In this document: piece after piece, positions 2,806-41,889 of the stretch
Numbering within the stretch: position 1 is the first letter of the stretch
How the letters are laid out: every line of letters begins with the position of its first letter
IMG/VR virus record: IMGVR_UViG_3300025936_000023
Span: 5,622-69,621 of that record
Reading direction: 5' to 3' (one strand)
DNA from: a virus
Lineage: Duplodnaviria > Caudoviricetes
Length of the DNA: 64,000 nucleotides
Position numbers and translations under genes: made by a program
Notes under the pieces: generated by a model
Database searches by the model: none
What the model was told of the DNA's origin: nothing
The model's input: the letters and a program-made list of their open reading frames with translations, nothing else

Positions 2806-3695
2806 GCGAGCCGTCGCCGCCGCCGCCCGCTTTTCCCCTCTCTGCTCGCGGCCATATCGCTAAGCGCCCCAAGCTGCGCCGTCGTCGCAGGCGCGCCAAG
2901 ACCAAGCGAGCGCCGACTTACAAGAAGTCGCAGACCGCCTTCGCCAAGCTCCGCCGTCGCAACCAACGCGAGCAGCCCATACTGCCGGCAAAAGACGCCG
3001 GCTGCCAGCACCCCAAAGCCCGCGCTCGCGGCTGTTGCCAGTCACGAGCGATCACGGTCGTCGTCGACGGCGTCAAGGTGCCAGCCGCCTTCGCCATCCC
3101 GGCCGGCTACACCCCCGACATCCGCCACGCCGACCAACCGCAGCTGCCCAACCCCGCCCGCCTCTGCACCCAGCACAAGTTCTTGGTCGACGCCTACGCC
3201 GAGAGCCAGCTAACAGGCGACGTCACCGACCTCCCCGTCGACGCCGGTGGCCGCGGTCGCCCGCACGACTTCGCCCATCGCAGCCAGTGCCCGGTGTGCG
3301 CCAAGCTCGTCACCGACCCGCGCCTCGAATGGGTGATGACGGCGTGGATGAAGTGGCGGGTGTCGATAAGGCAAGCCGCCGCCGAGCTTGGCGTCACCGT
3401 CAACTCGTTCAACCACCACGCCCAATACTACGACCTCGACAAGAAGAAGAACGAGCGCGAGCACACGATGTTGGCGCTACAAAGGGCAGCCGAAGAAGGA
3501 CTGGCGGCCGGCGGCCACAGCGTGAAGACCGGGATCGCGGCTATGAGGGAGCTGAGCCGGCAGCGGGGCGATGTGGTCAACGTGGATGCGCGAGTGGCGG
3601 TGGCTGATTTGTCGTCGCTGTCGACGGCTGAGCTAGCTAAGCGTAATGCGGACTTGGCGAAGCGGCTGGCAGAACTGGAGGCGGGCAGTAAGTGA
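2802..3695 (+). CDS. Terminase small subunit (putative)
   Basis: Directly upstream of TerL with GTGA overlap; HTH-like VSIRQAAAELGVTVNSFNHH; C-terminal DLSSLSTAEL. Confidence 0.7.
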   Translation: MSEPSPPPPAFPLSARGHIAKRPKLRRRRRRAKTKRAPTYKKSQTAFAKLRRRNQREQPILPAKDAGCQHPKARARGCCQSRAITVVVDGVKVPAAFAIPAGYTPDIRHADQPQLPNPARLCTQHKFLVDAYAESQLTGDVTDLPVDAGGRGRPHDFAHRSQCPVCAKLVTDPRLEWVMTAWMKWRVSIRQAAAELGVTVNSFNHHAQYYDLDKKKNEREHTMLALQRAAEEGLAAGGHSVKTGIAAMRELSRQRGDVVNVDARVAVADLSSLSTAELAKRNADLAKRLAELEAGSK

Positions 3696-11556: not shown

Positions 11557-12600
11557 ATGGCCGCCAACATCGCCACCTTCAAGCCCAAGGGCGGGTTTGG
11601 CCGCCGCGACCACTTCGGCCTCAAGGCCCTCGCCGGCCTGGCTGCCGCCAACGACGACAACCCCGTCATGACTCTCCGCTCCTACTCGCCGCTTCCCCGC
11701 GACGCGCAGGAGATCATCGACAACGAGATCCTGAAGGTCGGCCGTGACGAACTCGTCATTGCCGCGACCCTTCTCGACTCGGTGAGCAAGCCGCTGCCCA
11801 ACTGGCTCTCGCTCACGACCGTCACGTCGCAGCGCGCGGGGGAGGCTGGCCGCGCTCAGGTCGGCATGGTGCCGAACACTCGCGGCGAGCGCCAGATCCC
11901 CGACCTGGCCGAGTACAGCGTCCCGGTGTTCTCGATCTGGGACGACTACGAGTTCGACATCAAGACGATCAACACCGCCCAGCGTGTCGGCTATGCCCTC
12001 GACACGACTTCCGCCGAGCAGGCCACCCGCAACGTCAACGAGAAGATCGAAGACGTCATGCTCAACGGCCTCGTCGACGCCAACGGCGATCCCATCCTTG
12101 TCTACGGCCTCCCCGTCTATGGCTTGCTCAACGCCCCCAACGCCTCGACGTACCCCTTCGAGACCAACACGAAGTGGGACGACGCGGCCAAGACGGGCAG
12201 CGACATCCTCACCGACGTCATCGGCATGCTGAAGCTCGGCAAGGCGGCCCACCAGACCGGCCCGTGGACGTTCTTCATCCCCACTTCCTACGGTTTCGCA
12301 CTGTCGAAGCAGTTCACGGCCGGCTACCCTGCGACCATCCTCAGCATGCTGCTGCAGATCCCCAACGTCGCCGGCTTCGTGGTCGCTGATTCCCTCCCCG
12401 ACGACACCGTCGTGATGTTCAACAAGAAGACGAACAGCATGGACGTGCTGGTCGGCATGCTGCCCACCTCGTTCTCGTGGGCGACCAACCCGCAGATGCC
12501 GTTCAGCGGTGTCAGCAGCATGGTCGCGGCGGTCGTCATCCCGCGGCCGAAGTACAGCTACAACAACGAGACCGGCATCGTCGTGGGCACGCCGACGTAG
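11557..12600 (+). CDS. Major capsid protein (HK97 fold, Linocin M18/encapsulin-like)
   Basis: 347 aa; SVPVFSIWDDYEFDIK, EDVMLNG...VYGLLNAPN; position and very high codon bias. Confidence 0.85.
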   Translation: MAANIATFKPKGGFGRRDHFGLKALAGLAAANDDNPVMTLRSYSPLPRDAQEIIDNEILKVGRDELVIAATLLDSVSKPLPNWLSLTTVTSQRAGEAGRAQVGMVPNTRGERQIPDLAEYSVPVFSIWDDYEFDIKTINTAQRVGYALDTTSAEQATRNVNEKIEDVMLNGLVDANGDPILVYGLPVYGLLNAPNASTYPFETNTKWDDAAKTGSDILTDVIGMLKLGKAAHQTGPWTFFIPTSYGFALSKQFTAGYPATILSMLLQIPNVAGFVVADSLPDDTVVMFNKKTNSMDVLVGMLPTSFSWATNPQMPFSGVSSMVAAVVIPRPKYSYNNETGIVVGTPT

Positions 12601-13536: not shown

Positions 13537-13983
13537 TCACTGTCCATAGACTTGAAGTCGAAGACGGTCAATCGCCATTAGGGCTTCTTCCCTAGTCGCG
13601 TAGCAGCCAAGAGGTATTTCAACCTTTCTGATGTGCAGACGAGCCCTCCATCTGCCGTTCGGCAACAGCGATGCACCCTTTCCGGTGCCTCGTCGTTTGC
13701 GAGCCATGTCGCTGCGATTGTCTTGGTCTGTGCCGGCCTTCAGATGTTCTGGTTCGCAGCACGCCGGTTTATCGCAGCTATGAAGGACCTGCGGTCTGTC
13801 TTTTGTGATGGTGCGGCCAGAAAGCTCGTAAGCGATCCGATGAGCATAGAATGTCTTACCTCCGACCACAAAAGATCCGTAGCCTGCTGTAGTTCTCGCG
13901 CCCATGAACAACAGGCAGCCATCGTCGTCGCGCTCCAGTCTTGAACGGAACCTTTCGATGTCTTGCTGGCTTAGTGGTATCAT
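13537..13983 (-). CDS. Free-standing HNH homing endonuclease with AP2-like tail
   Basis: GCLLFMG...GYGSF...AHRIAY...VLHSCDKPACCEPEHL...DN; antisense; visibly more AT-rich. Confidence 0.9.
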   Translation of the reverse strand: MIPLSQQDIERFRSRLERDDDGCLLFMGARTTAGYGSFVVGGKTFYAHRIAYELSGRTITKDRPQVLHSCDKPACCEPEHLKAGTDQDNRSDMARKRRGTGKGASLLPNGRWRARLHIRKVEIPLGCYATREEALMAIDRLRLQVYGQ

Positions 13984-13990
13984 GAACACG

Positions 13991-14019
13991 ACCCTACAGC
14001 CAAGGAAGCAGATTGTCAA
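13991..14019 (-). promoter_or_regulatory. Promoter of the HNH gene (leaderless geometry)
   Basis: TTGACA (14019-14014), 17 nt, TAGGGT (13996-13991), 7 nt, ATG. Confidence 0.65.
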
Positions 14020-14388: not shown

Positions 14389-14790
14389 ATGAAGCGGATC
14401 CTGCTCTCTGTCGTTGCCGGCTTGGCGCTCTCGCTGCTGGCGTTGTCGTCGCCGGCCGCCGCTGCCAGCAACATCCGCACGACCAAGCTGGCCGCCGGCA
14501 CTAGCGACTCAGCCATCATCGCCGCCAATCCTGCCGGCACCGCCACGCTCCTCGAATTCTGCGGCTTCTCGGCACGCGAGACCGGCGGGGCTTCCACCGC
14601 CACCATCGACGTCTACAACGGTAGCAGCGCGAGCGGTCAGCTCATATTCACTTTCTCCCTTGTCGGCGCCGAGAGCCGTAGCGAAGGTCCGTGGGAAGAT
14701 GCCGCGTGTATCCCTGCCCCCAACGGCATCTTCATCGACCGCGGCGGCGCGGGCACTACACTGCTCCTCGTTTATAGTCGGCAGCGGTGA
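14389..14790 (+). CDS. Signal-peptide-bearing small beta-rich protein
   Basis: AGGAGG RBS; MKRILLSVVAGLALSLLALSSPAAA|AS. Confidence 0.75.
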   Translation: MKRILLSVVAGLALSLLALSSPAAAASNIRTTKLAAGTSDSAIIAANPAGTATLLEFCGFSARETGGASTATIDVYNGSSASGQLIFTFSLVGAESRSEGPWEDAACIPAPNGIFIDRGGAGTTLLLVYSRQR

Positions 14791-14815
14791 GCGGTAGCGA
14801 TAAAGGACAGCAACC

Positions 14816-16636
14816 ATGAGAAGGCTGAATACTCTTCTTGTCCTCTTGTCGCTGCTTGTCGTGCCGGCGACTGTCCAGGGCGGCAGCTCGGGCGGCACAA
14901 CTACCGGCGGTGGCGGCGCCGGTACAGTCACCAGCGTCAACGCCAGCGGACCTTCTGTCTTCACTTGGTCTGGTGGGCCGATCACCGACACTGGCACGCT
15001 CACCGCCGCGCTCAACACGCAGGCGGCCAACCTCTGCCTTGCCGGCCCTGCGACAGGCTCGGCCGCGGTGCCGACGTTTCGTGCGTTGGTCGACGCCGAC
15101 GTCCCCAACACGATCACTATCGACCTTGCCACTGCCTGCACAGCCCTCGCTGCCAACCCCGCCAACTGCTCGGCCGGCCAGATTCCGCTGGGCATCACCG
15201 CGAGCGGCACCGCCGAGGGCTGCTACACCCCGACGAGCACTACCGTGGGACTCTCCAATGTCACCAACGACGCGCAGACCAGGGCGGCCATTGTCCCCAA
15301 CACCATACCCTCGGCGGGGCAGATTCAGATCGGCAACGCCGGCGGCACGGCCTACGCCCCGCAGACCTTGAGCGGCGACTGCACGGTTACGAGTGCTGGC
15401 GTGATCACTTGCTTCGGTTCGTCGCCCGCCACGGTTGCCAAGGGCGGCACCGGCGCCACGACCTTCACGAATCACGGCGTCCTCTTCGGCCAGGGCGGCA
15501 GCGCAATTGCCGCGAGTGCGGCCGGCACCGCGGGCTACCCGCTCACCAGCGGCGGCGCCTCAGCCGATCCGAGCTTCGCCCAGCTCGTCCCCGCCGCACT
15601 AGACTTCTCGGCCGACAACACGACGGCCAACGCGACCACCGGACACCACGGGCTGCTGCCGAAGCTAAGTGGCAACGCGAGCGAATTCCTTAATGGTGTC
15701 GGTGCATTCGCGACCCCCGGAGCGCCAGCGCCGCCGGGTTCCACAACGCAGGTCATCTTCAACGACGCCGGAGTGTTTGGCGCCGACTCTCAGCTCACGT
15801 TCAACAAGACCTCCGGCCTCACCACCATCACTTCCGGCGGCCACGCGGGCGCGGCAGCCTTTAAGGTTCTTCCCGATAGCGGAACGTCGTACACCCAAAT
15901 TAACGACAACGGGACAATGGTTGTCAACGCCGATGTTGCCGGTACTCCAATTCTCGATCTCCAATACAGCGGCTCGTCGAAGTACCAATTCGGCTACAAC
16001 CTCGGCACCATTACCAACCCGCTCAGTCTTGGCGGCGGTGCTCTCTATGTGTCGAACGGCGGCGTTATTGGCGTTGGCTCGGCTATCCCGCTCACCTTTT
16101 CTAGCACCTCAAGCGGGAATGGGGCGGCGGACGGGTCCGTGTCTCGCATCGCTGCCGGTGTTGCCGGCTTCGGCACCGGAGCTGCCGGCTCACGCGCGGG
16201 CTGGATGCAGTGGGCCGGCGAGTGCTTCGTCGCTTCCGATCAGACGAACGCCACCACGACGATGGCCTCGTCGACCTGCTCAATCACCGTCACCAGCGGC
16301 CGCAAATACAGCTTCGTTTGCGAGCTGTTTATGTCGGATTCGGTTGCGGCCGATGGCGCCAAGATCGACTTCAACGGCGGGACCGCGACGGCTACCAACT
16401 TCCGCGCTCAGGTGACGGCGTTCGACACGGCGCTGAATCTATCGTCGCAGGTGACGGCGCTCGCTACTGCGTCGTCAGCCACTACATTTACTGGCGCCGG
16501 GGCCTTCGAGGTCCACGGGGCGTTCGAGCCTTCGGCGAACGGAACCTTCATTCCGGAGTTCGCACAAGTCGGGCATACTACCGGGACACTGACGCTGAAC
16601 CGCGGCAGCAATTGCCGTATGTTCGATATGCCGTAG
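14816..16636 (+). CDS. Signal-peptide-bearing mosaic fibre-like protein (606 aa)
   Basis: MRRLNTLLVLLSLLVVPATVQG|G; fibre-type modules GTVTSV, PTFRAL, GLSNVTND, VAKGGTGAT, HGLLPKLSG; Thr/Ser/Gly-rich; paired Cys. Confidence 0.8.
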   Translation: MRRLNTLLVLLSLLVVPATVQGGSSGGTTTGGGGAGTVTSVNASGPSVFTWSGGPITDTGTLTAALNTQAANLCLAGPATGSAAVPTFRALVDADVPNTITIDLATACTALAANPANCSAGQIPLGITASGTAEGCYTPTSTTVGLSNVTNDAQTRAAIVPNTIPSAGQIQIGNAGGTAYAPQTLSGDCTVTSAGVITCFGSSPATVAKGGTGATTFTNHGVLFGQGGSAIAASAAGTAGYPLTSGGASADPSFAQLVPAALDFSADNTTANATTGHHGLLPKLSGNASEFLNGVGAFATPGAPAPPGSTTQVIFNDAGVFGADSQLTFNKTSGLTTITSGGHAGAAAFKVLPDSGTSYTQINDNGTMVVNADVAGTPILDLQYSGSSKYQFGYNLGTITNPLSLGGGALYVSNGGVIGVGSAIPLTFSSTSSGNGAADGSVSRIAAGVAGFGTGAAGSRAGWMQWAGECFVASDQTNATTTMASSTCSITVTSGRKYSFVCELFMSDSVAADGAKIDFNGGTATATNFRAQVTAFDTALNLSSQVTALATASSATTFTGAGAFEVHGAFEPSANGTFIPEFAQVGHTTGTLTLNRGSNCRMFDMP

Positions 16637-16661
16637 GCCGCCACCTCAAGGAGATCTCTAA

Positions 16662-16976
16662 ATGCGCCGGATCATCGCCCGCTGCCTCTTTGCCACCGCC
16701 CTGCTACTCGCTGCCGCCGCTGGCTGGGCAACTCGCTCGGTTAGCTACGTGCTGCAGAACTGCTCGCGCGCCGACATTCGCGCGATGACCATCCGCGTCG
16801 ATCCGACAAGCGGCGACCCTGTCGAGGACGTGCAGTACCAGCTCCGCGACGCGGGCGGCACCGTCGTGAAGACGGGCGGCATCGTGCTCACGCTGACGAC
16901 GACGCAGAAGAACACGCTGCTCTCGCACATCGACACCGTCGTGCGCCCAGCGGTGGACACGGCCGAGGGCCTGTAG
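16662..16976 (+). CDS. Signal-peptide-bearing small protein
   Basis: AAGGAG RBS; MRRIIARCLFATALLLAAAAGWA|T. Confidence 0.75.
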   Translation: MRRIIARCLFATALLLAAAAGWATRSVSYVLQNCSRADIRAMTIRVDPTSGDPVEDVQYQLRDAGGTVVKTGGIVLTLTTTQKNTLLSHIDTVVRPAVDTAEGL

Positions 16977-16985
16977 GCGGCGACT

Positions 16986-17744
16986 ATGCGCGCTCGCTTA
17001 ACGGTCGCGCTGGCGCTCTTGCTCGCGTCGTGGTGGGCGTGCGCGGCGCATGCTGAGGTCCGCTTCGTGCCGCTGGCGAATGCCTCTGGCGGCAACAGGC
17101 TCTACGTGGCCGACACCGAAGCGGAGTGTCCGACGACCGGCGCGGCCAACGGCGACGTCTGCATCGCGCTCGACACCGGCAAGATCATCAAGCGTACAGC
17201 CGGCAGCAACATCGCGGCTGTCGCGTTCAGTAGCCTGACCGGCTCGCTGGCTTGCGCGCAGTTGCCGCCCTTCACCGGCAACGTGACGACGTCGGCCGGC
17301 TCGTGCTCGACCACTATCGGCAACGGCGTTGTCACCAACGCGATGCTGGCTGCGCTGTCGTACACCAAGGTCGTATTCGTCGCCACCTGCGCGGGCACAG
17401 CTACAGCCAGCAGCACGCTCTACCTGTTCCCTATCGGCCAGCTCTCCGCGCTCACCTGTACGATCACGACGCCGACGGCTGGTATCCCTATGCCGACGGC
17501 GGGGACACTCAAGAACCTGACCGTTAAGGTCGGCACCGGAGGTAAGGCTGGCGACGCGGTGACGGTCCTCAAGGGCGGGTCGGCGACTGGGATGCCGACA
17601 TGCGTGTATGGCACGGGCACAACGTGCAGCGATTTGTTGACGGCTGGCGCAGTCGTCGCTGGCGACCTCATCACCGTGAAGCTCACGACGGCCGCGAGCG
17701 ACACTACAGCCAACGTCCAGGTTACGTTCGAGCTGTGGAACTGA
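16986..17744 (+). CDS. Signal-peptide-bearing fibre-like protein (252 aa)
   Basis: MRARLTVALALLLASWWACAAHA|E; LPPFTGNVTTSAGS..TIGNGVVTNAMLA fibre repeat; paired Cys. Confidence 0.78.
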   Translation: MRARLTVALALLLASWWACAAHAEVRFVPLANASGGNRLYVADTEAECPTTGAANGDVCIALDTGKIIKRTAGSNIAAVAFSSLTGSLACAQLPPFTGNVTTSAGSCSTTIGNGVVTNAMLAALSYTKVVFVATCAGTATASSTLYLFPIGQLSALTCTITTPTAGIPMPTAGTLKNLTVKVGTGGKAGDAVTVLKGGSATGMPTCVYGTGTTCSDLLTAGAVVAGDLITVKLTTAASDTTANVQVTFELWN

Positions 17745-18103
17745 TGAGCATCGTCGACGACATCGCCGACCTTCTCGACGCCGATCTCTACGCACAGTTC
17801 GGCGCCCTCGACTACACCGGCTCATTCGTCCCCTCCGGTGCCCTTCTCGGCCCACTCCCGTGTCGTATCGAGGGCGAGCAGCGCCTGGTCCGCGACCCCA
17901 CCGGCCAGGAAGTCACGACGAGCGTGCAGGTCATAGTCGGCGGCTACTTCGACCTCACGACCGACCACCATCGGTACTTCTTGCCGTCGCAGTGGTCGCC
18001 TAACGGGAGCGAGGGAGCGGGTGAAGGGCTGCGAGCGCTCTATGTCGACAACGTGAATGACGAAGCCGTCGGGCCGCTTTATCAGGAGCTGAGTTTTCCG
18101 TGA
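17744..18103 (+). CDS. Head closure/stopper protein
   Basis: PCRIEGEQRLVRDPTGQEVTTSVQV motif; TGATG coupling. Confidence 0.7.
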   Translation: MSIVDDIADLLDADLYAQFGALDYTGSFVPSGALLGPLPCRIEGEQRLVRDPTGQEVTTSVQVIVGGYFDLTTDHHRYFLPSQWSPNGSEGAGEGLRALYVDNVNDEAVGPLYQELSFP

Positions 18104-18146: not shown

Positions 18147-19298
18147 ATGTCGTCGCCTCCATTCCGCATCCCCGTCTCGCAGCCCAAGATCGGCAACCTA
18201 GAACTCGGCCTGGTTGCCGACTGTCTGCGCCGCAACCAGCTCAGCCAAGGGCCAATGGTCGCTCGCTTCGAGCAGGAGTTTGCGGCCTACGTTGGCGCCC
18301 GCTACGCCGTCGCGACCAGCAGCGGCACGACCGCGCTTCATCTAGCCCTCGCCGCTCTGGGCATCGGCCCCGGCGACGAGGTGCTGGTGCCGGACCTGAC
18401 CTTCATCGCCACCGCGAACGCCGTCGTCTACTGCGGTGCGACGCCGGTCCTCGTCGACGCTGACCCGGCGACATGGTGCATGGGGCCGTCGCAGATCGCC
18501 GCCAAGCTAAGCTATCGAAGCCGCGCGATCATCCCTGTCCACCTCTACGGCGTTCAGTGTGATTACAGCACCTCGCGCGGACTGTTTGTCGTCGAGGACG
18601 CCTGTGAAGGACTTGGTGGCCGCTACATCACGAGCGGTCGCGCTCTCGGCACGGTCGGCGATTGCGGCGTGTTCAGCTTCTACGCCAACAAGGTAATCGG
18701 TGTCGGCGAAGGCGGCATGGTCGTAACCGACAACGAGCAGTTCGCCGAGCGCTTGAGGCTCTATCGCGGCCAGGGCTGGCACCCAAGCGACGCCCGCTAC
18801 TACCACTCCGTCGTCGGCTTCAACTACCGCATGACCGAGCTGCAAGCGGCAGTCGGGGTCGGCCAGTTGCAGCGGCTGCTGTCCATGTTGGCTGCTCGTC
18901 GTGCGATCTTCGACCGCTACGCGCACCACCTCGACGGCTACTTGCCGTCGCCGCCGTGCAGCACCGACGTCGGTAGCGCGCCGTGGCAGTACACGACGAT
19001 GCTGCCGCCGGGTGTCAGTCGCGATGGCTTAGCCGACGCTCTGGCCGCTGCTGGCATCGAGACTAGGCCGGTGTTCGTGCCGCTTCACCGGCTGCCGATG
19101 TATCGAGCATCCTACGTCACCGAAGTGGGCGGCGATGGGCCGTCGCTTGCCGACGTCGACTTCCCTGCCGCTGCCGCTATCGCCGACGCCGGTATCTCGT
19201 TGCCGACCTTTGCCGACATGACGATGGCGCAGGTAGACGAGGTGGCCCAGCGTGTAGTAGACTACGTGGCGAGACAGACGACTGGAGATCGGCCATGA
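18147..19298 (+). CDS. DegT/DnrJ/EryC1/StrS PLP-dependent nucleotide-sugar aminotransferase (perosamine synthase-like)
   Basis: ATSSGTTALHLAL, VVEDAC, FSFYANK with PLP Lys, GEGGMVVT, GFNYRMTELQAAVG. Confidence 0.93.
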   Translation: MSSPPFRIPVSQPKIGNLELGLVADCLRRNQLSQGPMVARFEQEFAAYVGARYAVATSSGTTALHLALAALGIGPGDEVLVPDLTFIATANAVVYCGATPVLVDADPATWCMGPSQIAAKLSYRSRAIIPVHLYGVQCDYSTSRGLFVVEDACEGLGGRYITSGRALGTVGDCGVFSFYANKVIGVGEGGMVVTDNEQFAERLRLYRGQGWHPSDARYYHSVVGFNYRMTELQAAVGVGQLQRLLSMLAARRAIFDRYAHHLDGYLPSPPCSTDVGSAPWQYTTMLPPGVSRDGLADALAAAGIETRPVFVPLHRLPMYRASYVTEVGGDGPSLADVDFPAAAAIADAGISLPTFADMTMAQVDEVAQRVVDYVARQTTGDRP

Positions 19299-19492
19299 AG
19301 CATCTACGATTCGGCTTCGGTTCTTGGCTGGGAACAGCGACGACTAGCGTTCTAACCGCAGCGGCGTTCGCGTCGATGGGCGACATCGCTTGGTCGCGTG
19401 TCTATATCGCTGCCTGTTTGTGGTTGATCGTGCTGACCGTCGTCGGGATGATCTACTTCGCCGCCGCTGTCGTGAAGGAGAGTCGGCGGTGA
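19295..19492 (+). CDS. Small two-TM membrane protein
   Basis: Hydrophobic 65 aa, coupled on both sides. Confidence 0.65.
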
Positions 19493-20094
19493 GTGCAACA
19501 GACTTTGCCTACGGTCGGCTAGAGCTAGGACGGCGTCAGCTCATCGCGCACTCTAACAACGCCGGCAGCCAGCCGACAATCTACGAGCCAGTCAGCATCT
19601 TGCGACCCGACCATCTCTGGATTCACCCGTCTGCCCGCATCGACCCCTTCACTCGCATCGAGTCCGGCGAGGGCACCTACATTGGCCCGCTGGTTCATGT
19701 GGCGGCGCACTGCCACTTGGGCGTGGGTGGCGGCATCCTCATCATGGAAGAAGGCTCTGCCGCCAGCAGCCACGTCTGTATTGTCACCGGCAGCAACGTG
19801 CCCGGCCCTGGTCGCGGGTGCTCGGCAGTCGACCCGGCGGCTGTTGTCGAGCGCAGCTTCGTGCATGTCAAGCGAAACGCGATTCTGTTCGTCGGCGCGA
19901 TAGTGCTGCCGGGCGTGACGGTGGGCGAGGAGGCGGTGGTGGCGGCTGGAGCAGTAGTGACGAAGGACGTGCCCGACGGTGCGACGGTTGCCGGCGTGCC
20001 TGCGCGAGTCGTGAAGACGGCCGACAGCTCTAGCGTGTGGCCGTCACTGCAAGAGCCGTTCGACATGGGCGATGGCGCAGGAGCGATAAGGTAG
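19489..20094 (+). CDS. Hexapeptide-repeat (left-handed beta-helix) sugar acyltransferase
   Basis: [27 protein letters not shown]...GVPARV; RIDPF and HVAAH recall QdtC-type N-acetyltransferases. Confidence 0.88.
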
Positions 20095-20831
20095 TGCGTG
20101 TGTGCGTAGCGTCTGCCCACCGCAACTCTGCCGGCCGCCAAATCAGTCGCTGGATCAGCCAGATCATCGCCCTCCGCGACGAGCTGCGCAACCACTACTA
20201 CTGCGGCGTGCGCGCCGTAGCCGTCGAGGGCGACTCAACCGACACCACTCGCGCTCAGCTCACCACCGAAGCCGAGCAACGACTAGCTCCTCGCGATATC
20301 GAGTTCGAGCTGGCGACGTGCAACCACGGCGGGCCGGTGTACGGGTCGACAGAGCAACCAGAGCGGATGGCTGCGCTGTCCAAGGTCGGCAACGCGGTGC
20401 TGGATGCGGTGCGGGCAACCGATGACGTGCTCGTCTATGTCGAGAGCGACTTGGTGTGGGACGCCGAGACGATTAGACGGCTGATTGATCGAGTTCTCGG
20501 CGCTGCTGTTCACCGTGTCGAGTCGACGTGGGATCTCGACGCTGTCGACGACTGCGACGTGTGGGTGCCAGTCGTCATGGCCGGCGACACCCATTACGAT
20601 TGCTGGGCGTATAGGACGCTTGACGGCTCTCGCATCTTCCACCCCTTCCCGTTCACGGCGCCTACCGAACTCAGCAGTGCCGGTAGCTGCCTCGTGATGC
20701 CGGCGGCGGTCGCCCGAGACAAGCGGGCGCGGATGGAGACCGGAGCGCTGGTCGAGTGGTGTGAGAAGGCGCGAGCAGCTGGCTACAGGATCGCAGTCGA
20801 CCCGGCGCTTATCGTGAGGCACCCGGCGTGA
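20094..20831 (+). CDS. GT-A fold glycosyltransferase-like protein (GT2/Anp1-like)
   Basis: VAVEGDSTDTT, VLVYVESDL (DxD-like), ELSSAGSCLVM, C-terminal VDP...HP. Confidence 0.7.
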   Translation: MRVCVASAHRNSAGRQISRWISQIIALRDELRNHYYCGVRAVAVEGDSTDTTRAQLTTEAEQRLAPRDIEFELATCNHGGPVYGSTEQPERMAALSKVGNAVLDAVRATDDVLVYVESDLVWDAETIRRLIDRVLGAAVHRVESTWDLDAVDDCDVWVPVVMAGDTHYDCWAYRTLDGSRIFHPFPFTAPTELSSAGSCLVMPAAVARDKRARMETGALVEWCEKARAAGYRIAVDPALIVRHPA

Positions 20832-20926
20832 GCTGCTTGGGCGCTGTTATCGCCTTGGCTACCGTTGTCGCGTTTGCCTGGTGGACTGGCGTGCAGATGT
20901 TCGGCGATCCGCGAGACGACAAATGA
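20828..20926 (+). CDS. Small membrane peptide (32 aa), not in the ORF track
   Basis: MSCLGAVIALATVVAFAWWTGVQMFGDPRDDK; GTGA and ATGA coupling to both neighbours. Confidence 0.5.
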   Translation: MSCLGAVIALATVVAFAWWTGVQMFGDPRDDK

Positions 20927-21780
20927 AGGTCTTCGTCAAGCCGACGGGCATGTACTCGCGCGCGATGGTGCGTATCGCCGACGCCCTCGCTCGCCACGCT
21001 CCACCGTCCGTCAGCATCACGGCCGACCGCGACGCAGCCGACCTAGTCGTCCTCTACGTGATCGGGCCGGACGCACTCCAGGCAGGCCGCGATCTTGTTG
21101 CTGCCGGTAAGAAATATGCAGCTGTCCAATGTTGCTGGAAGACGACCGGCGTCGCCGACGCCGACTGGATGCCGTTCTGGCGAGACGCAGATCTCGTGTG
21201 GTCGTACTACCAATTGCCTGGCGACGGAACGTTCAATTTTTACTACGCGCCACTAGGCGTTGACACCATCTTTGCGAGTGCTTATCGTCTGAGCAACGTT
21301 AAGCAGCCGACCATCATCACCACCGGCTTCGTGTCGTCGCCGGCTGGCGAGGCTATCGAGGAAGTGTGGCTGGCAGCTCGCCGCTGTAACTTCCGCACCA
21401 TCCACATCGGACCGCCGAACGTCGAGGGCACGCTGCTCCACGCCGACGAGCACATCCAGCCCTCTGACGCTAAGCTGGCGGCGGTCTATGCTGAGGCTCG
21501 CTGGGTGGCGTCGTTGCGGCACACCGAAGGCTTTGAGTGCCCAGCGGCCGAGGCCGTCGTGGCTGGCACTCGCCCGTTACTGTTCGATCAACCAACACTT
21601 CTCTACTGGTATCGCGACGTCGCCGAATACGTGCCGGAGTGCAGCGGCGACGTGTTGGTTGACCTGCTGACGATAAAGCTGTCTGGGCTCGACCCGGTGA
21701 GCGGCCACGAACGCGATTGGCTGCTACGACGTTTCGACTGGGCGACGATATGCCGCGGATTCTGGGAGCGCGTCCTTTAA
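20923..21780 (+). CDS. GT-B fold (GT4-like) glycosyltransferase
   Basis: APLGVD, SLRHTEGFECPAAEAVVAG (EX7E), FDWATICRGFWE. Confidence 0.8.
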   Translation: MKVFVKPTGMYSRAMVRIADALARHAPPSVSITADRDAADLVVLYVIGPDALQAGRDLVAAGKKYAAVQCCWKTTGVADADWMPFWRDADLVWSYYQLPGDGTFNFYYAPLGVDTIFASAYRLSNVKQPTIITTGFVSSPAGEAIEEVWLAARRCNFRTIHIGPPNVEGTLLHADEHIQPSDAKLAAVYAEARWVASLRHTEGFECPAAEAVVAGTRPLLFDQPTLLYWYRDVAEYVPECSGDVLVDLLTIKLSGLDPVSGHERDWLLRRFDWATICRGFWERVL

Positions 21781-21796
21781 CGGAGGCTCGTCAGAC

Positions 21797-22588
21797 TTGA
21801 AACTAGGAGAGAGAATTTTCTCTGGTCTGTTGTTGAAGGAGCACGCGCTCTACGTACTCGAAGATCCGACTACCGACGAGATTAGGTATGTCGGCTATAC
21901 GTGCGACGTTCGGCGTCGGTTCTCCGAGCACAGAAAGCGCCGCCATTCGTACACGAGCAGCTGGATTCAATCGCTACACAATAAGGGATTGCAGCCTAGA
22001 CTGAGAGTCTTGTGCTACGTTCAGGACGCATTCGAGGCGAAGCGTCTTGAAGTCGAACTAATAGCCAAGTACAGAAGGCGAGGAGTCCGTCTCACCAACG
22101 GGACTGAAGGTGGTGACGGAGTCGTATCAACTCCAGAGACTAGGGCCAAGCAGATTGCAGCGGCGACTGGTGTAGTTTTTACCGCCGAGAGAAAAGCTAA
22201 TATCTCTGCTGCGCTAAAGAAGCTGCCGGTCACGCAAGAACGGCTCGATGTTCTGAACAGGGCTTGCCGGTCTCTCAGTAGAGAGCAGATTCTGCTCCGT
22301 AATCAAGCTATCGCGGCTGCCAAGTTAGGGCAGCCTCTTAGTGAGTTTCATTGCCGACGTATATCAGAGACGGCGAAGGCAAGATGGTCTAAGGCAGAGG
22401 AGCAGAGACTGAAAGCGTCTTGGACTCCTGAAAGGGGAGCGAAGATATCAGCGGCTAAAAAGGGTAAACCATTATCCGAAGAGAACAAAGCCGCTATTCG
22501 TGCAGCAGCTGCCAGACCAGAAGTCAAAGCCAAGCAGTCTGCCGCACGTAAACTATGGTGGGCACGGAGAAAGGCGTTCGAGTCTTGA
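21797..22588 (+). CDS. GIY-YIG homing endonuclease with NUMOD3-like repeats
   Basis: LYVLEDP...RYVGYT..RR...E..I...LTNGTEGGDG; ISAAKKGKPLSEE repeats; AT-richer. Confidence 0.9.
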   Translation: MKLGERIFSGLLLKEHALYVLEDPTTDEIRYVGYTCDVRRRFSEHRKRRHSYTSSWIQSLHNKGLQPRLRVLCYVQDAFEAKRLEVELIAKYRRRGVRLTNGTEGGDGVVSTPETRAKQIAAATGVVFTAERKANISAALKKLPVTQERLDVLNRACRSLSREQILLRNQAIAAAKLGQPLSEFHCRRISETAKARWSKAEEQRLKASWTPERGAKISAAKKGKPLSEENKAAIRAAAARPEVKAKQSAARKLWWARRKAFES

Positions 22589-23874
22589 GAGTTCTTTGGA
22601 ACGGCGACTCGCCGACGATAAGCACCGGCTTCTCGCGTTGCACAGTCGCGGCCTGCGACGCCCTTCACGCTGCCGGTCACGAAGTCCACATCTTGGGTAT
22701 CAACGAAACTGGCGACCATCGCACCTACCACTCGCCAATCTACCCGTGCATTCAGCCTTTCGACCAAGGCAGAGACGCGTTCGGTGTCGGTCGTATGCCT
22801 GTTCTAGTCGACCGTCTCCGTCCTGACGTCATCTGCTGTTTAAACGATCCGTGGAATCTGCCGGCGTACACCAAGACGCTCGATGCCTTCTTCAAGGACG
22901 AGCCTTCGGCGATTCCGCCGATATGCGCATGGTTGGCAGTCGACGGCAAGAACCAGCACGGTTGGCTGCTTAATCGCCTGTCGCACATCATGGTGTGGAC
23001 TAAGTTCGCCGAAGACGAGCTGCGAAGTGGAGGCTACAAGGGCACCTGCTCCATCGTTCCACTTGGCGTCGACCACTCGGTTTTCTATCCGCGCGATAGA
23101 GCTGAAGCCCGCCGCATAGCGTTCCAGACCTTGCCAGAGCCGTTGCCAGATGACGCATTTATCGTCGGTGTTGTCGGGAGATTGCAGCACAGGAAAAGGA
23201 TCGACCTTTCGCTCCGCGCGTTTGCTGAGTGGATCGAGCGCACAGGCATCGACAACTCGTTCATCTACATCCACGCGGCGCCGACTGGAGATACTGGGTG
23301 CCATATCCGTTCGCTCACTCGCTACTACGGTCTTGACGGGCGCGTCGTTATCTCTGAGCCGCACATCGGCCGTGGCGTCGAAGAGACCGTGCTCCCGTGG
23401 ATCTACGCTTCATTCGATACGATGCTTACGACCACCCAGGGCGAGGGCTGGGGGCTTTGTCAGCACGAGTGCATGGCGATGGGCGTGCCTGTCGTCGTCC
23501 CCGATTGGTCTGCGCTTGGTGTCGACGGGTGGACCGGCAATGGCGTGCTGAGGGTGCCGTGCAACTCGACGGCGTTGACAGCGCCGATGAACGGTCTGGC
23601 CTACACGATTGGCGGGGTTGCAGACTGTTCTGCGGTCGCTGACGCACTGGATCTTCTCTACCGAGATCGGTCGGCGAGAGAGCACTATGCGGCTGCCGGC
23701 CTCGCCAAAGCCGCCGAGTTCAGCTGGCAACGCACCGGAGCCATGGTCGTAAGCGAGTTAGAACGAGTCGTTTACGAGGCGGAAACCAAGCGTAGACAGC
23801 AGTCGGCGATTGCAGTAGACTCAGGCGACTCGCCGGCCACCGAGCCGGCTCACACACCAGTCACCAGCCAGTAG
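22585..23874 (+). CDS. GT-B fold (GT4-like) glycosyltransferase
   Basis: MRVLWNGDSPTISTGF, VPLGVD, GVVGRLQHRKRIDL, TTQGEGWGLCQHECMAMGVP (EX7E). Confidence 0.9.
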   Translation: MRVLWNGDSPTISTGFSRCTVAACDALHAAGHEVHILGINETGDHRTYHSPIYPCIQPFDQGRDAFGVGRMPVLVDRLRPDVICCLNDPWNLPAYTKTLDAFFKDEPSAIPPICAWLAVDGKNQHGWLLNRLSHIMVWTKFAEDELRSGGYKGTCSIVPLGVDHSVFYPRDRAEARRIAFQTLPEPLPDDAFIVGVVGRLQHRKRIDLSLRAFAEWIERTGIDNSFIYIHAAPTGDTGCHIRSLTRYYGLDGRVVISEPHIGRGVEETVLPWIYASFDTMLTTTQGEGWGLCQHECMAMGVPVVVPDWSALGVDGWTGNGVLRVPCNSTALTAPMNGLAYTIGGVADCSAVADALDLLYRDRSAREHYAAAGLAKAAEFSWQRTGAMVVSELERVVYEAETKRRQQSAIAVDSGDSPATEPAHTPVTSQ

Positions 23875-36455: not shown

Positions 36456-36459
36456 AGCT

Positions 36460-39619: not shown

Positions 39620-39891
39620 TTGGGCGGCTCGTCGCTGCGGAAGTCGTTATCGCCGTCGTAGGTCGCGAAGATCCCGGTGCCGACAAGATCGTCGAGTTCC
39701 TTCCTGGCCTTGTCGAAGTCGGCTGCCAGCCTAACGAAACAGCCCGCCACCAGGTCGGCTACCTCGGCGCCGACGAACTCGATGAAGGCATGGAGCGCTT
39801 GCTGTTCGCGGTAAAGCTCTAGTGACTCGGCCAGTGCCGCCGTGAACGCCCTTCGGTACTCGCTCTCGCCGCTCCTGCGATCACAGTCCAT
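39616..39891 (-). CDS. Hypothetical protein, last gene of the - arm
   Basis: Acidic helical 91 aa. Confidence 0.6.
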   Translation of the reverse strand: MDCDRRSGESEYRRAFTAALAESLELYREQQALHAFIEFVGAEVADLVAGCFVRLAADFDKARKELDDLVGTGIFATYDGDNDFRSDEPPN

Positions 39892-40975
39892 ACTTGTACC
39901 TCAGGTAGGTCTTCACCCGGTCGACGTTATAGCTGCTCAGCTTCGGCGTGTAGAGCAGGAACTCGGCGATGTCGCCGGTGACGAAGAAGCCGCTGTCGTT
40001 TCTGCACCCGACATAGACCGTGTCCGTCACCGTGCTCGTCGACGCCGTCGGACCGTCGCCCGCGCTGTCCTGGGTGAACACAAACGCGCCGTCGAGCCAT
40101 AGCCGGTGGGTCTCGTGCGTGCCAGCGTACTCCTGCGCCATCACCCGCCACTGGTTGTCGTCGCCGCCGTAGCCGGTCGGGTTGGTGCCGCGCTGCGAGA
40201 CCTGAGTGCGGCGAACGCGAGCCTGAGCAAAGTCGGTGAAGAGCGAGCTGCCGTCGTTGGTGCCGCTGTCGGCCGACTGCTCGTAGATGAAGCCGTGGCC
40301 GGTAGCGCGAAAGACGACAAAGACGTCGAAGGTCGAGATGCCAATGGTCGACGCGCTCACCTCGCAGTCACCGCCGTCGAGGCGGTAGACCGGGTGGCCG
40401 TTGAGGACGTTGGTCTTGAAGGTGAACTTCTTGCCGCCGGTCGACTGCGTGAAGTTGCCGCCGCTGCCGTAGTTGGCGACTGTGCCCACTGCGTCGCCGT
40501 CGTTGTAGTTGGCGTCGTCCTGGGTCGCGTCCAACCACACCACTAGGCCGCTGATGTCGGTGGGGGTGACGGTGGCGTCGGCGGCCAGGGCGACGGTATC
40601 GGTGGTGGAGTCGCCGGTACACGACAATGGCGGCGCGCAGGTATAGGTGAGGATGTCGTTGGGGCCGTCGGCGACCGGGTTGGTGCCGGTCGGCGTGTCG
40701 ATGGTCTCGAACGAGTTGCCACCGGCGCCAGCTGTCTCGGCTGCGTAGACGCCACCGCGGCACACGCAGTCGGCGAACACGCTGCCGCCGCCGGTGCTGT
40801 CGCAGTCGTCGACGGCCGAGGCGTCGATGATGACGTAGTGGGAGCCTTCGCGTGAGTCGTTGCAGGCGAGGGCGGCGATGCCGTTAGCGAAGCCGATATG
40901 GTCGAGGAGAGGAGCGGCGAGAGCGGGAGCGCCGACAGCTAGGGCAACGACGGCGGCAAGCACAAGCCGCCTCAC
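39881..40975 (-). CDS. Signal-peptide-bearing LamG/concanavalin-like protein
   Basis: MRRLVLAAVVALAVGAPALA|A; PTDISGLVVWLDA...LNGHPV...GDIAEFLLY...YLRYKYGL; paired Cys. Confidence 0.8.
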   Translation of the reverse strand: MRRLVLAAVVALAVGAPALAAPLLDHIGFANGIAALACNDSREGSHYVIIDASAVDDCDSTGGGSVFADCVCRGGVYAAETAGAGGNSFETIDTPTGTNPVADGPNDILTYTCAPPLSCTGDSTTDTVALAADATVTPTDISGLVVWLDATQDDANYNDGDAVGTVANYGSGGNFTQSTGGKKFTFKTNVLNGHPVYRLDGGDCEVSASTIGISTFDVFVVFRATGHGFIYEQSADSGTNDGSSLFTDFAQARVRRTQVSQRGTNPTGYGGDDNQWRVMAQEYAGTHETHRLWLDGAFVFTQDSAGDGPTASTSTVTDTVYVGCRNDSGFFVTGDIAEFLLYTPKLSSYNVDRVKTYLRYKYGL

Positions 40976-40980
40976 GCCGT

Positions 40981-41889
40981 TCACGCCGTCACCGCCTTCA
41001 CCTCGCCACTCCAGCCTTTCTCGACGCCGACGAGACGACCATCGCGTACTTCGACACGCGAGCACACCCAGCGACGATCTACGTCGCCTTGCGTCGGTTG
41101 GTCGATGTAGGCGTTGTAGCCGGCGCCGGTGATGCGCTCGACGGTCATCGGGCAGCGCATACGGGGAATCGTGTCGCCGACAGGAATAGCATCGACCTTA
41201 GACTCAGGCTGGATCATCGCCCAATAGCCGGCTAGCGTGCGGTCGCGATAAAGCTTGTCGAGCGAAGGTCGATAGCCGCCTATGTGAAAGCGCTGAGCGT
41301 TCAACGTTGTTAGCACTTCGTGGTTCGGTATGTCCGAACGGCAATTCGTACAAGGCAAAACGACCTTGGCACCGATGACACCGCGCGCTGCGAACGTAAC
41401 AGCGAATAGCGACGAGAACCACCACGCCGTCTCCGCGAGAATGTCGGCGACGCCGTACTTCGCCGCGTAGAAGTGTGCGACACCGTGAGCAGCGAGGAAC
41501 ATCGCGAAGTGAGGGTCTGGTGCCAGTTGTTCAGCACCCATAAACTCGTGACGCTCGCCGCGCAAGTATGTCAACAGCTCGTCGTGCCACTTGCGTGTTT
41601 CAGGGTCGTCGGGACCGCTCGCTGCAAGGTGCCACGCCCAGCCTATCGACTTGCCCTCGATACGATAGTTCTCGGTGCCACCCTCGCCTTCCTCGAACAG
41701 CAAGCTCTCAGGAGGTCGCGGCGGCAACGGGTTGTTCTTCGGGTCAACGGCGTACTTGACGAGCGCGTGCTGGATCGCGAGCTGCGCCTGCGCCGTGCCC
41801 TCGCGACCTTCGCCGTCGCCGCGGTCGGGCTTGTTACTGTTGACGTCGCCGACGTTGACGTTGGCGTTGTCCTTGCCGTGTCGATTCAT
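40981..41889 (-). CDS. Hypothetical protein (302 aa)
   Basis: GGAG RBS; globular composition; no motif recognised. Confidence 0.7.
   Translation of the reverse strand: MNRHGKDNANVNVGDVNSNKPDRGDGEGREGTAQAQLAIQHALVKYAVDPKNNPLPPRPPESLLFEEGEGGTENYRIEGKSIGWAWHLAASGPDDPETRKWHDELLTYLRGERHEFMGAEQLAPDPHFAMFLAAHGVAHFYAAKYGVADILAETAWWFSSLFAVTFAARGVIGAKVVLPCTNCRSDIPNHEVLTTLNAQRFHIGGYRPSLDKLYRDRTLAGYWAMIQPESKVDAIPVGDTIPRMRCPMTVERITGAGYNAYIDQPTQGDVDRRWVCSRVEVRDGRLVGVEKGWSGEVKAVTA

What the first reader, a model, noticed from the sequence alone, without database searches (positions are those of the whole stretch)
14389..17744. Four consecutive Sec signal-peptide proteins in the virion operon
All four begin with basic residues, a hydrophobic core and an A-x-A-like cleavage site (MKRILL, MRRLNTLL, MRRIIAR, MRARLTV). 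The 606 and 252 aa proteins are mosaics of tail-fibre-type modules and carry spaced Cys pairs, consistent with folding in an oxidising compartment. Tailed-phage structural proteins normally assemble in the cytoplasm without signal peptides.
Basis: partly seen in the sequence, partly recalled or inferred. Interest (0 to 1): 0.75.

Follow-up and report, generated by a model that had tools for sequence, protein, structure and literature searches.

The report
Phage fibre proteins carrying export signals
An uncultured 70-kb tailed phage encodes, between its head and neck genes, four proteins built from tail-fibre and jelly-roll parts that carry bacterial secretion signals and paired cysteines, so they very probably fold in the host periplasm and not in the cytoplasm where phage particles are built.

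Summary
Genes A (14389-14790), B (14816-16636), C (16662-16976) and D (16986-17744) are real, tightly packed late genes between the major capsid gene and a head-tail connector gene. Under a strict rule, five of 92 predicted proteins have a signal-peptide N-terminus, and four of them are A-D (chance of such a run about 1.5e-4).

Evidence for export:
- Orthologues keep the signal's features while its sequence changes.
- 73 of B's 120 best homologues carry such signals. 61 of those 73 have an even number of mature cysteines.
- The phage's core virion proteins are almost cysteine-free (0.18 per 100 residues, against 2.1 in A-D and a fifth exported protein).

B and D are mosaics of tail-fibre modules with jelly-roll tips. 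A is a small jelly-roll. C is an orphan.

Where the proteins end up is not resolved. I favour periplasm-matured accessory fibres that particles pick up at lysis. The cultured Cellulophaga phage phi10:1 has signal-bearing proteins annotated from virion MS/MS. An exported non-virion role, like PBSX XepA, is nearly as likely.

This scan has already reported signal-bearing fibre proteins in at least six other phage genomes.

The parts
14389..14790 (+). Gene A, 133 aa: signal peptide plus an eight-stranded jelly-roll domain with one Cys pair (C58, C107)
   Evidence: ORF and GGAGG ribosome site. 56 homologues. AlphaFold model with pLDDT 90.6: helix 2-18, then a beta-sandwich. Weak fold matches to Ena1B (Z 8.7), XepA (Z 8.2), YomS (Z 7.0) and the KHP40 cement protein (Z 6.8). 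Many ~100-aa uncharacterised Caudovirales proteins match in BFVD.
14389..14466 (+). Predicted signal peptide of A (about residues 1-26, cleavage near AAA|A-S)
   Evidence: n/h/c regions by rule. This region is the unalignable, gapped part of alignment A1, whereas the domain aligns.
14816..16636 (+). Gene B, 606 aa: signal peptide, Gly/Ser/Thr linker, a chain of tail-fibre modules, and a C-terminal tip (about residues 440-606). 10 Cys.
   Evidence: Residues 137-200 are 60-76% identical to modules in 21 viral contigs. The tip is nearly identical in P0002, whose shaft and signal differ. P0002 matches the tail-fibre family phrog_2631 at 4e-8.
14816..14881 (+). Predicted signal peptide of B (residues 1-22, VQG|G)
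   Evidence: 51 of the 60 best homologues also start with a signal-like segment.
16662..16976 (+). Gene C, 104 aa: signal peptide plus an ~80-aa orphan domain
   Evidence: Only four close homologues exist (66-95% identity). All keep the hydrophobic N-terminus and a small -3/-1 site. No family, fold or Atlas lead.
16662..16730 (+). Predicted signal peptide of C (residues 1-23, GWA|T)
16986..17744 (+). Gene D, 252 aa: signal peptide, a ~55-aa Cys-containing N-domain, one fibre repeat (residues 81-122), and a jelly-roll tip (residues 123-252). 8 mature Cys.
   Evidence: The tip is shared with the signal-less fibre-like proteins P0125 and P0127. The repeat is 63% identical to gene 38 of Rhodobacter phage RcZahn. 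The best fold match of the tip is the Agrobacterium phage 7-7-1 tail fibre (Z 8.9), but the model is weak at pLDDT 52.9. Atlas look-alikes carry Mtd_N.
16986..17054 (+). Predicted signal peptide of D (residues 1-23, AHA|E)
   Evidence: Orthologue P0122 has different core residues but keeps VHA|EV. Its Cys position is not conserved, so this is not a lipobox.
17744..18103 (+). Head-tail connector gene. Its ATG overlaps D's stop codon (context: shows that A-D sit inside the morphogenesis operon).
   Evidence: phrog_3881 head-tail connector, 3.6e-5. TGATG overlap.
39881..40984 (-). Fifth signal-bearing protein of the phage (367 aa, 8 Cys). It has a four-Cys N-domain shared with B homologues P0049 and P0068, and a lectin-like C-terminal half.
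   Evidence: Weak tblastn match (27% identity) to a 'virion structural protein' of Synechococcus phage S-CBS4.

Best explanation
A-D are late genes, co-transcribed and partly translationally coupled with the head and neck genes. Their products are sent through the Sec pathway, cut by signal peptidase I, and folded with disulfide bonds in the periplasm of a diderm host. I put that step at about 0.85.

B and D are fibre-type adhesins, probably trimers, with jelly-roll tips. Each is preceded by a small exported partner: A, a jelly-roll, and C, an orphan. The cassette is an accessory insertion in the head-tail joining module.

Inferred, with much less certainty: the proteins are accessory host-recognition fibres or decoration. 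They collect in the periplasm and bind finished particles only when holin, endolysin and spanin lysis merges the two compartments.
For: Export:
- The n/h/c architecture is present in all four proteins and in only one other of 92 proteins.
- The signal keeps its features but not its sequence in orthologues.
- 73 of 120 B homologues carry signals. Their mature parts have even Cys counts in 61 of 73, and a median of 1.43 Cys per 100 aa against 0.37 (p about 1e-8).
- The A-family Cys pair occurs only with a signal.
- Core virion proteins hold 10 Cys in 5589 aa, and none in portal, capsid, tube or the 1894-aa tape measure. A-D plus the fifth protein hold 31 in 1462 aa.
- A lipobox lipoprotein lies beside the GH19 endolysin, which fits a diderm host.

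Late operon:
- Intergenic gaps are 10-26 nt and D overlaps the connector gene.
- No excess of promoter-like or terminator-like sites.

Fibre nature.

Accessory insertion: the distant backbone relative Brevundimonas phage StAshley has no such genes between capsid and tail genes.

Virion destination:
- In Cellulophaga phage phi10:1, gp091-gp094 are annotated as structural from MS/MS. They sit in the tail-fibre slot and have signal-like N-termini.
- In viral contig IMGVR_UViG_3300032954_000013, four signal-bearing fibre proteins fill the slot after the tape measure and distal tail genes.
- The same modules occur in signal-less tail fibres.
Against: - No signal-peptide predictor was available, and there is no experiment.
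- No mechanism is known by which a periplasmic protein joins a tailed-phage particle.
- Mature B starts with a flexible Gly/Ser/Thr stretch and has no recognisable virion-attachment domain.
- The tail tip has its own signal-less, Cys-free proteins of 754 and 480 aa, so A-D are not needed for a basic adsorption device.
- The PBSX protein XepA is a late, exported jelly-roll protein reported absent from particles (PMC6834076). It is a middling fold match of both A and the D tip (Z 8.2).
- An earlier check in this scan of a similar bold reading gave it 9 in 100.
Confidence: 0.4

Rival explanations
1. The proteins are exported but never become part of the particle. A-D act in the envelope of the infected cell. 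They could bind envelope polysaccharide or peptidoglycan, help lysis or release as proposed for PBSX XepA, or keep incoming or progeny phage from being wasted on the dying cell.
For: - XepA is a late, exported jelly-roll protein that is absent from particles. A and the D tip match its N-domain at Z 8.2.
- Mature B has no virion-anchor domain.
- The cassette is dispensable in a backbone relative.
- The fifth signal-bearing protein is encoded outside the structural operon, on the other strand near the lysis genes.
Against: - A periplasmic protein cannot mask an outer-surface receptor, and the record shows no outer-membrane secretion route.
- A 606-aa fibre made at late-operon levels is costly for an exclusion role.
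- The fold matches are of the common jelly-roll kind and lie within the Z range the tool calls middling.
- A-D lie in the head-neck module, not the lysis cassette.
- In phi10:1, comparable signal-bearing proteins are annotated as found in virions.
Confidence: 0.3
2. The hydrophobic N-termini are not export signals. B and D are ordinary cytoplasmic virion fibres, and the N-terminal helix is a structural anchor or an assembly element.
For: - The genes sit in the morphogenesis operon.
- Signal-less homologues have only short N-terminal peptides before the same Gly-rich linker, so the N-terminus may be a swappable attachment piece.
Against: - A structural anchor should be conserved in sequence. 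Here only charge, hydrophobicity and the -3/-1 site are kept.
- Signal presence goes with high, even cysteine counts, whereas the true virion core avoids cysteine.
- The two small proteins A and C carry the same feature.
Confidence: 0.1
3. A-D are the protein substrates of the neighbouring sugar cassette (18147-23874: DegT aminotransferase, hexapeptide acyltransferase, three glycosyltransferases). Together they would form one unit that makes glycosylated exported fibres. This reading can be true together with either destination.
For: - The two cassettes are separated only by the connector gene.
- The enzyme set resembles pathways that make acylated amino sugars for protein glycosylation. This is my own knowledge of the Campylobacter and Neisseria pgl pathways.
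- B has Ser/Thr/Gly-rich stretches.
Against: - No PglL/Wzy_C-type transferase is in the record, and I saw no large multi-pass membrane protein among the ORFs.
- The glycosyltransferases are soluble types that could equally modify cytoplasmic virion proteins or host polysaccharide.
- I did not test whether the two cassettes co-occur in other phages.
Confidence: 0.12
4. A-D are lysogenic-conversion morons: surface adhesins expressed from a prophage for the benefit of the host.
For: The genes are accessory relative to the StAshley backbone. Lambda lom is a classic signal-bearing moron inside a late operon (my own knowledge).
Against: - There is no promoter or terminator of their own, and the genes are tightly coupled to late genes.
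- Their GC content matches the genome.
- No tyrosine or serine recombinase is in the record, although the record is only about 78% complete.
Confidence: 0.05

Closest known systems
Signal-bearing tail-end 'structural proteins' of Cellulophaga phage phi10:1 (NC_021802, gp091-gp095)
   Same: Consecutive late proteins in a siphovirus structural operon. Each starts with a basic, hydrophobic, small-residue N-terminus. They include a tail fibre and pectate lyases. gp091-gp094 are annotated as structural from MS/MS.
   Different: The host is a Bacteroidota species. The genes sit in the tail-tip slot, not between capsid and connector. They have few cysteines (0-2). I detected no sequence relation to A-D. 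I know of no paper that discusses their signals.
Bdellovibrio bacteriovorus MAT (mosaic adhesive trimer) fibres (PMC10769870)
   Same: Phage-tail-fibre-like mosaic trimers that carry a signal peptide and are exported, with swappable tips. Some were produced with a PelB leader in E. coli.
   Different: MAT fibres are cellular genes of a predator and are displayed on its own surface. All share a conserved ~130-aa beta-rich domain after the signal. B has a Gly-rich linker there, and D has a ~55-aa Cys domain. I did not compare the sequences directly.
PBSX exported protein XepA and SPbeta YomS (PDB 6i56, 6i5o; PMC6834076)
   Same: A late protein of a phage-like element, built from jelly-roll domains, exported across the membrane during development. 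It is a fold match of A and of the D tip at Z 8.2 and 7.0.
   Different: XepA comes from a Gram-positive host, forms a pentameric two-domain dumbbell, and is encoded in the lysis cassette. It is reported absent from particles. It is not fused to fibre modules. The Z scores are in the range the tool calls common.
Ordinary signal-less phage tail fibres and neck fibres (for example Agrobacterium phage 7-7-1 tail fibre 9rkv; T4 fibritin and lactococcal neck passage structures as genes within the neck module)
   Same: They share modules and a jelly-roll tip. That fibre genes can lie among head-tail joining genes is from my own knowledge.
   Different: Those proteins have no signal peptide, fold in the cytoplasm, and have N-terminal attachment domains.
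Signal-bearing phage accessory proteins in late regions (lambda Lom and Bor, T5 Llp, phi80 Cor)
   Same: Exported phage proteins encoded next to structural genes (my own knowledge).
   Different: Those are outer-membrane barrels or small lipoproteins with their own expression signals. A-D have no lipobox, are not barrel-like, are built from fibre modules, and show no independent promoter.

Membership tests
Sec-type (signal peptidase I) secretory proteins | Positively charged n-region, uncharged hydrophobic h-region of about 7-17 residues, small residues at -3 and -1, total length about 18-30 | tested here: met
   All four proteins: charge +2 or +3, h-region 10-17 residues, sites AAA|A-S, VQG|G, GWA|T and AHA|E, length 22-26. 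This used my own rule, not SignalP.
Sec-type (signal peptidase I) secretory proteins | Signal features conserved in relatives without sequence conservation | tested here: met
   B against P0002, D against P0122, C against P0189, A against P0130-P0134. 73 of 120 B homologues are signal-like.
Sec-type (signal peptidase I) secretory proteins | Signature of oxidative folding: paired cysteines in the mature part | tested here: met
   Mature Cys counts: A 2, B 10, D 8 (C has 1). In the B family, 61 even, 9 odd and 3 none among signal-bearing members, against 19, 19 and 9 among the others. In the A family the pair occurs only with a signal.
Sec-type (signal peptidase I) secretory proteins | Demonstrated export and cleavage | not testable with these tools
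   Needs PhoA fusions, cell fractionation and N-terminal mass spectrometry.
Lipoproteins (signal peptidase II) | Lipobox L-[AS]-[GA]-C at the end of the signal | tested here: not met
   A and B have no Cys in the signal. In C, Cys8 lies at the start of the h-region. In D, the WWAC cysteine is not conserved in position in P0122.
Phage tail fibre or receptor-binding proteins | Sequence modules shared with annotated tail fibres | tested here: met
   B residues 137-200 and other modules occur in 21 viral contigs and 239 proteins. Some homologues carry Peptidase_S74, collagen, Mtd_N or beta-helix domains. P0002 and the signal-less homologues match tail-fibre PHROGs. The D repeat occurs in phage RcZahn. 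A-D themselves match no Pfam or PHROG family.
Phage tail fibre or receptor-binding proteins | Trimeric fibre shaft with a distal jelly-roll tip | tested here: inconclusive
   The D tip matches the phage 7-7-1 tail-fibre tip at Z 8.9, rmsd 2.3 over 105 residues, but the model has pLDDT 52.9. No trimer model was run.
Phage tail fibre or receptor-binding proteins | N-terminal domain that attaches the fibre to the particle | tested here: inconclusive
   None was recognised. Mature B begins with a Gly/Ser/Thr linker, and D has a small Cys domain of unknown role. Failing to recognise a domain does not prove it is absent.
Phage tail fibre or receptor-binding proteins | Presence in the virion | not testable with these tools
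   The phage is uncultured. The only indirect precedent is phi10:1.
Bdellovibrio MAT fibres | Conserved ~130-aa beta-rich domain directly after the signal peptide | not tested
   I made no direct comparison with MAT sequences. By inspection, B has a Gly-rich linker there and D a ~55-aa domain.
XepA/YomS exported lytic-cassette proteins | Jelly-roll domains of the XepA fold, pentameric dumbbell, position in the lysis cassette | tested here: inconclusive
   Fold matches at Z 8.2 (A and the D tip against 6i56) and Z 7.0 and 6.9 (6i5o) lie in the tool's middling range. Oligomeric state was not tested. A-D are not in the lysis cassette.
Morons (lambda lom/bor type) | Own promoter and terminator, and deviating base composition | tested here: not met
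   Promoter-like and terminator-like sites are not more frequent than in shuffles, and none brackets the cassette. Gaps are 10-26 nt and there is one overlap. GC is 0.65, like the genome.

The most novel reading that the evidence does not exclude
Tailed phages of several bacterial phyla may use a two-compartment assembly route. The head, neck and tail are built in the cytoplasm. Cysteine-rich fibres and small jelly-roll proteins are exported by Sec, oxidised in the periplasm, and attached to particles only at lysis. Here that would give neck-encoded accessory fibres (B, D) with partners (A, C).
Probability: 0.35. Interest if true: 0.85.

Novelty: new variant of a known kind. Interest (0 to 1): 0.6.

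Why it matters
Textbook assembly of tailed phages takes place entirely in the cytoplasm. Here a family of fibre proteins systematically carries export signals and paired cysteines. It occurs in viral contigs, in cultured Cellulophaga phages, and in genomes of Acidobacteriota, Verrucomicrobiota, Lentisphaerota and a deltaproteobacterium.

That implies one of two things. Either there is an undescribed periplasmic step in making host-recognition parts, or there is a widespread class of exported fibre-like late proteins of unknown role.

Practical consequences:
- Annotation: such genes are easily dismissed as host genes or as mis-called starts.
- Host-range prediction.
- Heterologous production of phage receptor-binding proteins, which may need a periplasmic, Dsb-dependent route.

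The correlation between signals and cysteine parity is a simple test that can be applied across databases.

Tried and rejected
- Pfam and PHROGs on A-D gave no significant family. PHROGs on the A alignment gave only phrog_28102, of unknown function, in 6 members.
- tblastn of B and of an A homologue against 50,697 phage records found nothing. D and the fifth protein gave only short or weak matches.
- The capsid protein has no close relative in IMG/VR. I found backbone relatives only among distant cultured phages.
I therefore could not fetch the 32-kb contig that holds the B and D orthologues (P0002, P0122), nor the 81.8-kb contig of this phage.
- The metagenome and genome scans returned only module-level matches.
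- The genome search does not draw relatives for a virus record.
- The D model was poor (pLDDT 52.9), so its fold matches are leads only.
- Foldseek against the PDB gave nothing below 1e-3 for A.
- Sequence search of the PDB with B and with the two tail-tip proteins found nothing.
- HMMs of the A and D families found no partner genes beside B-like genes in the fetched loci, so the small-plus-large gene pairing is not shown to be general.
- The Atlas gave no lead for C.
- Four literature searches found no paper that describes export signals on tailed-phage fibres.
- Tat export: B, C and the fifth protein have Arg-Arg. However, the signals are short and strongly hydrophobic, and most homologues have Lys-Lys. 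I therefore favour Sec, but Tat is not excluded.
- Lipoprotein, moron and lysogenic-conversion readings are rejected or down-weighted.
- A phage-encoded PglL/Wzy_C transferase was not found.


Full report
**Setting.** The window is bases 5622-69621 of a 69,621-bp linear IMG/VR virus record. CheckV rates it 78% complete. It is a siphovirus-type genome of about 64% GC. The late operon on the + strand contains, in order:
- a terminase-like gene (3692-5230);
- portal (7571-9211, PF06381);
- major capsid protein (11557-12600, DUF6260/PF09950);
- a 183-aa gene;
- an HNH endonuclease on the opposite strand;
- a 120-aa gene;
- the four genes of the finding;
- a head-tail connector gene (17744-18103, phrog_3881);
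- a sugar cassette: DegT aminotransferase, hexapeptide acyltransferase, glycosyltransferases and a GIY-YIG endonuclease;
- tail terminator, major tail protein and chaperone;
- a 1894-aa tape measure;
- two distal tail proteins of 754 and 480 aa;
- a lysis region with a GH19 endolysin.

A lipoprotein with an ALGAC lipobox follows the endolysin. That fits a spanin and a diderm host.

**The observation.** Genes A (14389-14790, 133 aa), B (14816-16636, 606 aa), C (16662-16976, 104 aa) and D (16986-17744, 252 aa) are as described.
- Each begins at the first start codon of its frame. A, B and C have clear ribosome sites.
- Gaps between the genes are 10-26 nt. D's stop overlaps the connector ATG.
- Third-position GC is 0.77-0.89.
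- Each N-terminus has two or three basic residues, an uncharged core of 10-17 residues, and small residues at -3 and -1. The predicted signals are 22-26 residues long.

With a strict start-anchored rule, exactly five of 92 predicted proteins qualify: A-D and a 367-aa protein at 39881-40984 on the minus strand. A run of four among five positives placed at random has a probability of about 1.5e-4. No SignalP-type tool was available, so these calls are my own.

**Are the signals real?** Three lines of comparative evidence say yes.

1. The feature is kept while the sequence is not.
   - P0002 is the B orthologue from a related 32-kb contig. It has a nearly identical C-terminal tip but a different shaft and a different signal peptide.
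   - The D orthologue P0122 (87% identical) changes the core residues but keeps the VHA|EV site.
   - All four C homologues keep the signal features.
   - The five closest A homologues have unalignable but typical signals.
2. Among the 120 best homologues of B, 73 have signal-like N-termini, including 51 of the top 60.
   - Their mature parts have a median of 1.43 Cys per 100 residues, against 0.37 in the rest (Mann-Whitney p about 1e-8).
   - Their cysteine count is even in 61, odd in 9 and zero in 3.
   - The signal-less members split 19 even, 19 odd and 9 zero.
   - In the A family, the Cys58-Cys107 pair is found in 8 of 19 signal-bearing members and in none of 24 signal-less ones.
3. Within this phage, the core virion proteins avoid cysteine.
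   - They have 10 Cys in 5589 residues, and none in portal, capsid, tail tube, terminator or tape measure.
   - A-D plus the fifth protein have 31 in 1462 residues.

Proteins that depend on disulfides must fold in an oxidising compartment. I therefore put export at about 0.85. The signals are short and very hydrophobic, and most homologues have Lys-Lys rather than Arg-Arg. This favours Sec over Tat, although Tat is not excluded. None of the signals has a conserved lipobox.

**What the proteins are.**
- B is a mosaic. After the signal comes a Gly/Ser/Thr linker, then modules shared at 40-76% identity with proteins on 21 viral contigs and with 239 database proteins. Some of those proteins carry collagen, beta-helix, Mtd_N or Peptidase_S74 domains.
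- The signal-less homologues, and the orthologue P0002, match tail-fibre PHROGs.
- D has a small Cys-containing N-domain, one fibre repeat that also occurs in Rhodobacter phage RcZahn, and a C-terminal domain shared with the signal-less fibre-like proteins P0125 and P0127.
- The D model is weak (pLDDT 52.9). Its tip best matches the tip of the Agrobacterium phage 7-7-1 tail fibre (Z 8.9), then TNF/C1q-like jelly-rolls. Atlas look-alikes carry Mtd_N.
- A folds confidently (pLDDT 90.6) as an eight-stranded jelly-roll behind the signal helix. It resembles many ~100-aa uncharacterised Caudovirales proteins.
- At middling Z, A also resembles Ena spore-appendage subunits, XepA, YomS and phage cement proteins.
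- The A domain also occurs in tandem: P0137 (1740 aa) gives 11 matched stretches and has a signal-like N-terminus.
- C is an orphan.
- The fifth protein shares a four-Cys N-domain with B homologues P0049 and P0068.

**An accessory cassette.** The nearest cultured backbone relatives are distant. Brevundimonas phage StAshley shares portal, the 559-aa protein, the capsid protein and one neck protein at 24-37% identity. Between its capsid and tail-tube genes it has only five small genes. A-D, like the sugar cassette, are therefore insertions into the head-tail joining module. They are not classical morons, for three reasons:
- no promoter-like or terminator-like sites bracket them;
- their composition matches the genome;
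- they are coupled to the connector gene.

I found no integrase or resolvase.

**Where do the proteins go?** This is unresolved.

For a virion destination:
- The genes lie in the morphogenesis operon.
- The modules are exchanged with true tail fibres.
- I tested a lead from earlier notes of this scan. In the record of cultured Cellulophaga phage phi10:1, gp091-gp094 are annotated as structural from MS/MS. They sit in the tail-fibre slot and begin with typical signals. gp095 also begins with one.
- On viral contig IMGVR_UViG_3300032954_000013, four signal-bearing fibre proteins fill the slot after the tape measure and distal tail genes. Two of them have 18 and 4 mature cysteines.
- Decoration proteins and fibres of model phages can be added to particles in vitro (my own knowledge). 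Attachment once lysis merges the compartments is therefore physically plausible.

Against a virion destination:
- No such route has been described.
- Mature B shows no attachment domain.
- The tail tip has its own cytoplasmic proteins.
- PBSX XepA is a late, exported jelly-roll protein reported absent from particles.
- Bdellovibrio MAT fibres show that Sec-exported phage-like fibres can serve purely cellular ends.

My estimates are 0.4 for periplasm-matured accessory virion fibres and 0.3 for an exported non-virion envelope role. The smaller alternatives are no export, morons, and a joint unit with the sugar cassette. For the last of these, I found no PglL/Wzy_C-type transferase in the record.

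**Standing.** This scan has already reported signal-bearing fibre proteins in at least six other phage genomes. One of them was noted between head and neck genes, as here. This window adds a well-supported case with quantitative cysteine evidence, and it places the cassette in the neck module of a probably proteobacterial phage. I rate it a new variant of a known kind, with interest 0.6.

Noticed in passing
window 18147-23874: A sugar cassette lies inside the head-tail joining module: DegT aminotransferase, hexapeptide acyltransferase, a CAP59-like and a GT4 glycosyltransferase, a 285-aa unknown, and an inserted GIY-YIG endonuclease. Only the connector gene separates it from A-D. The record has no PglL/Wzy_C-type transferase.
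   Followed up: partly
window 39881-40984 (-): A fifth signal-bearing protein (367 aa, 8 Cys) lies on the opposite strand near the lysis genes. Its four-Cys N-domain is shared with B homologues P0049 and P0068. Its C-terminal half weakly resembles a 'virion structural protein' of Synechococcus phage S-CBS4.
   Followed up: partly
window 7571-35661: The core virion proteins are almost cysteine-free. Portal, capsid, tail tube, terminator, chaperone, the 1894-aa tape measure and the 754-aa distal tail protein have none.
   Followed up: yes
window 13537-14019 (-), 21797-22588 (+), 36439-37074 (+): Three homing-endonuclease-type genes (HNH, GIY-YIG, and an ORF I read by eye as HNH/AP2-like, not scanned) sit beside or inside the inserted cassettes and the lysis region. 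They may have helped to make the module mosaic.
   Followed up: no
window 38989-39414: A lipoprotein with an ALGAC lipobox lies directly after the GH19 endolysin. It is a likely spanin, which argues for a diderm host.
   Followed up: partly
L036 plus L002 (IMGVR_UViG_3300032954_000013, contig positions 9000-39021): An unrelated 60.8-kb phage has four consecutive signal-bearing, cysteine-rich fibre proteins (1279, 304, 257 and 838 aa) in the canonical tail-fibre slot. It also has a 184-aa signal-bearing protein after its head genes.
   Followed up: partly
L032 (Cellulophaga phage phi10:1, NC_021802, 41847-48878): gp091-gp095 all begin with signal-like N-termini. They include a tail fibre and two pectate lyases. 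gp091-gp094 are annotated as structural from MS/MS.
   Followed up: yes
L029 7191-9545 (uncultured Acidobacteriota MAG, contig of 2.9 Mb): A 784-aa signal-bearing protein with a B-type module lies in what looks like a non-phage chromosomal neighbourhood. Such exported fibre-like proteins may also exist as cellular genes.
   Followed up: no
P0137 (1740 aa): The A-type jelly-roll domain gives 11 matched stretches in one large protein with a signal-like N-terminus, so it behaves as an extracellular repeat module.
   Followed up: no
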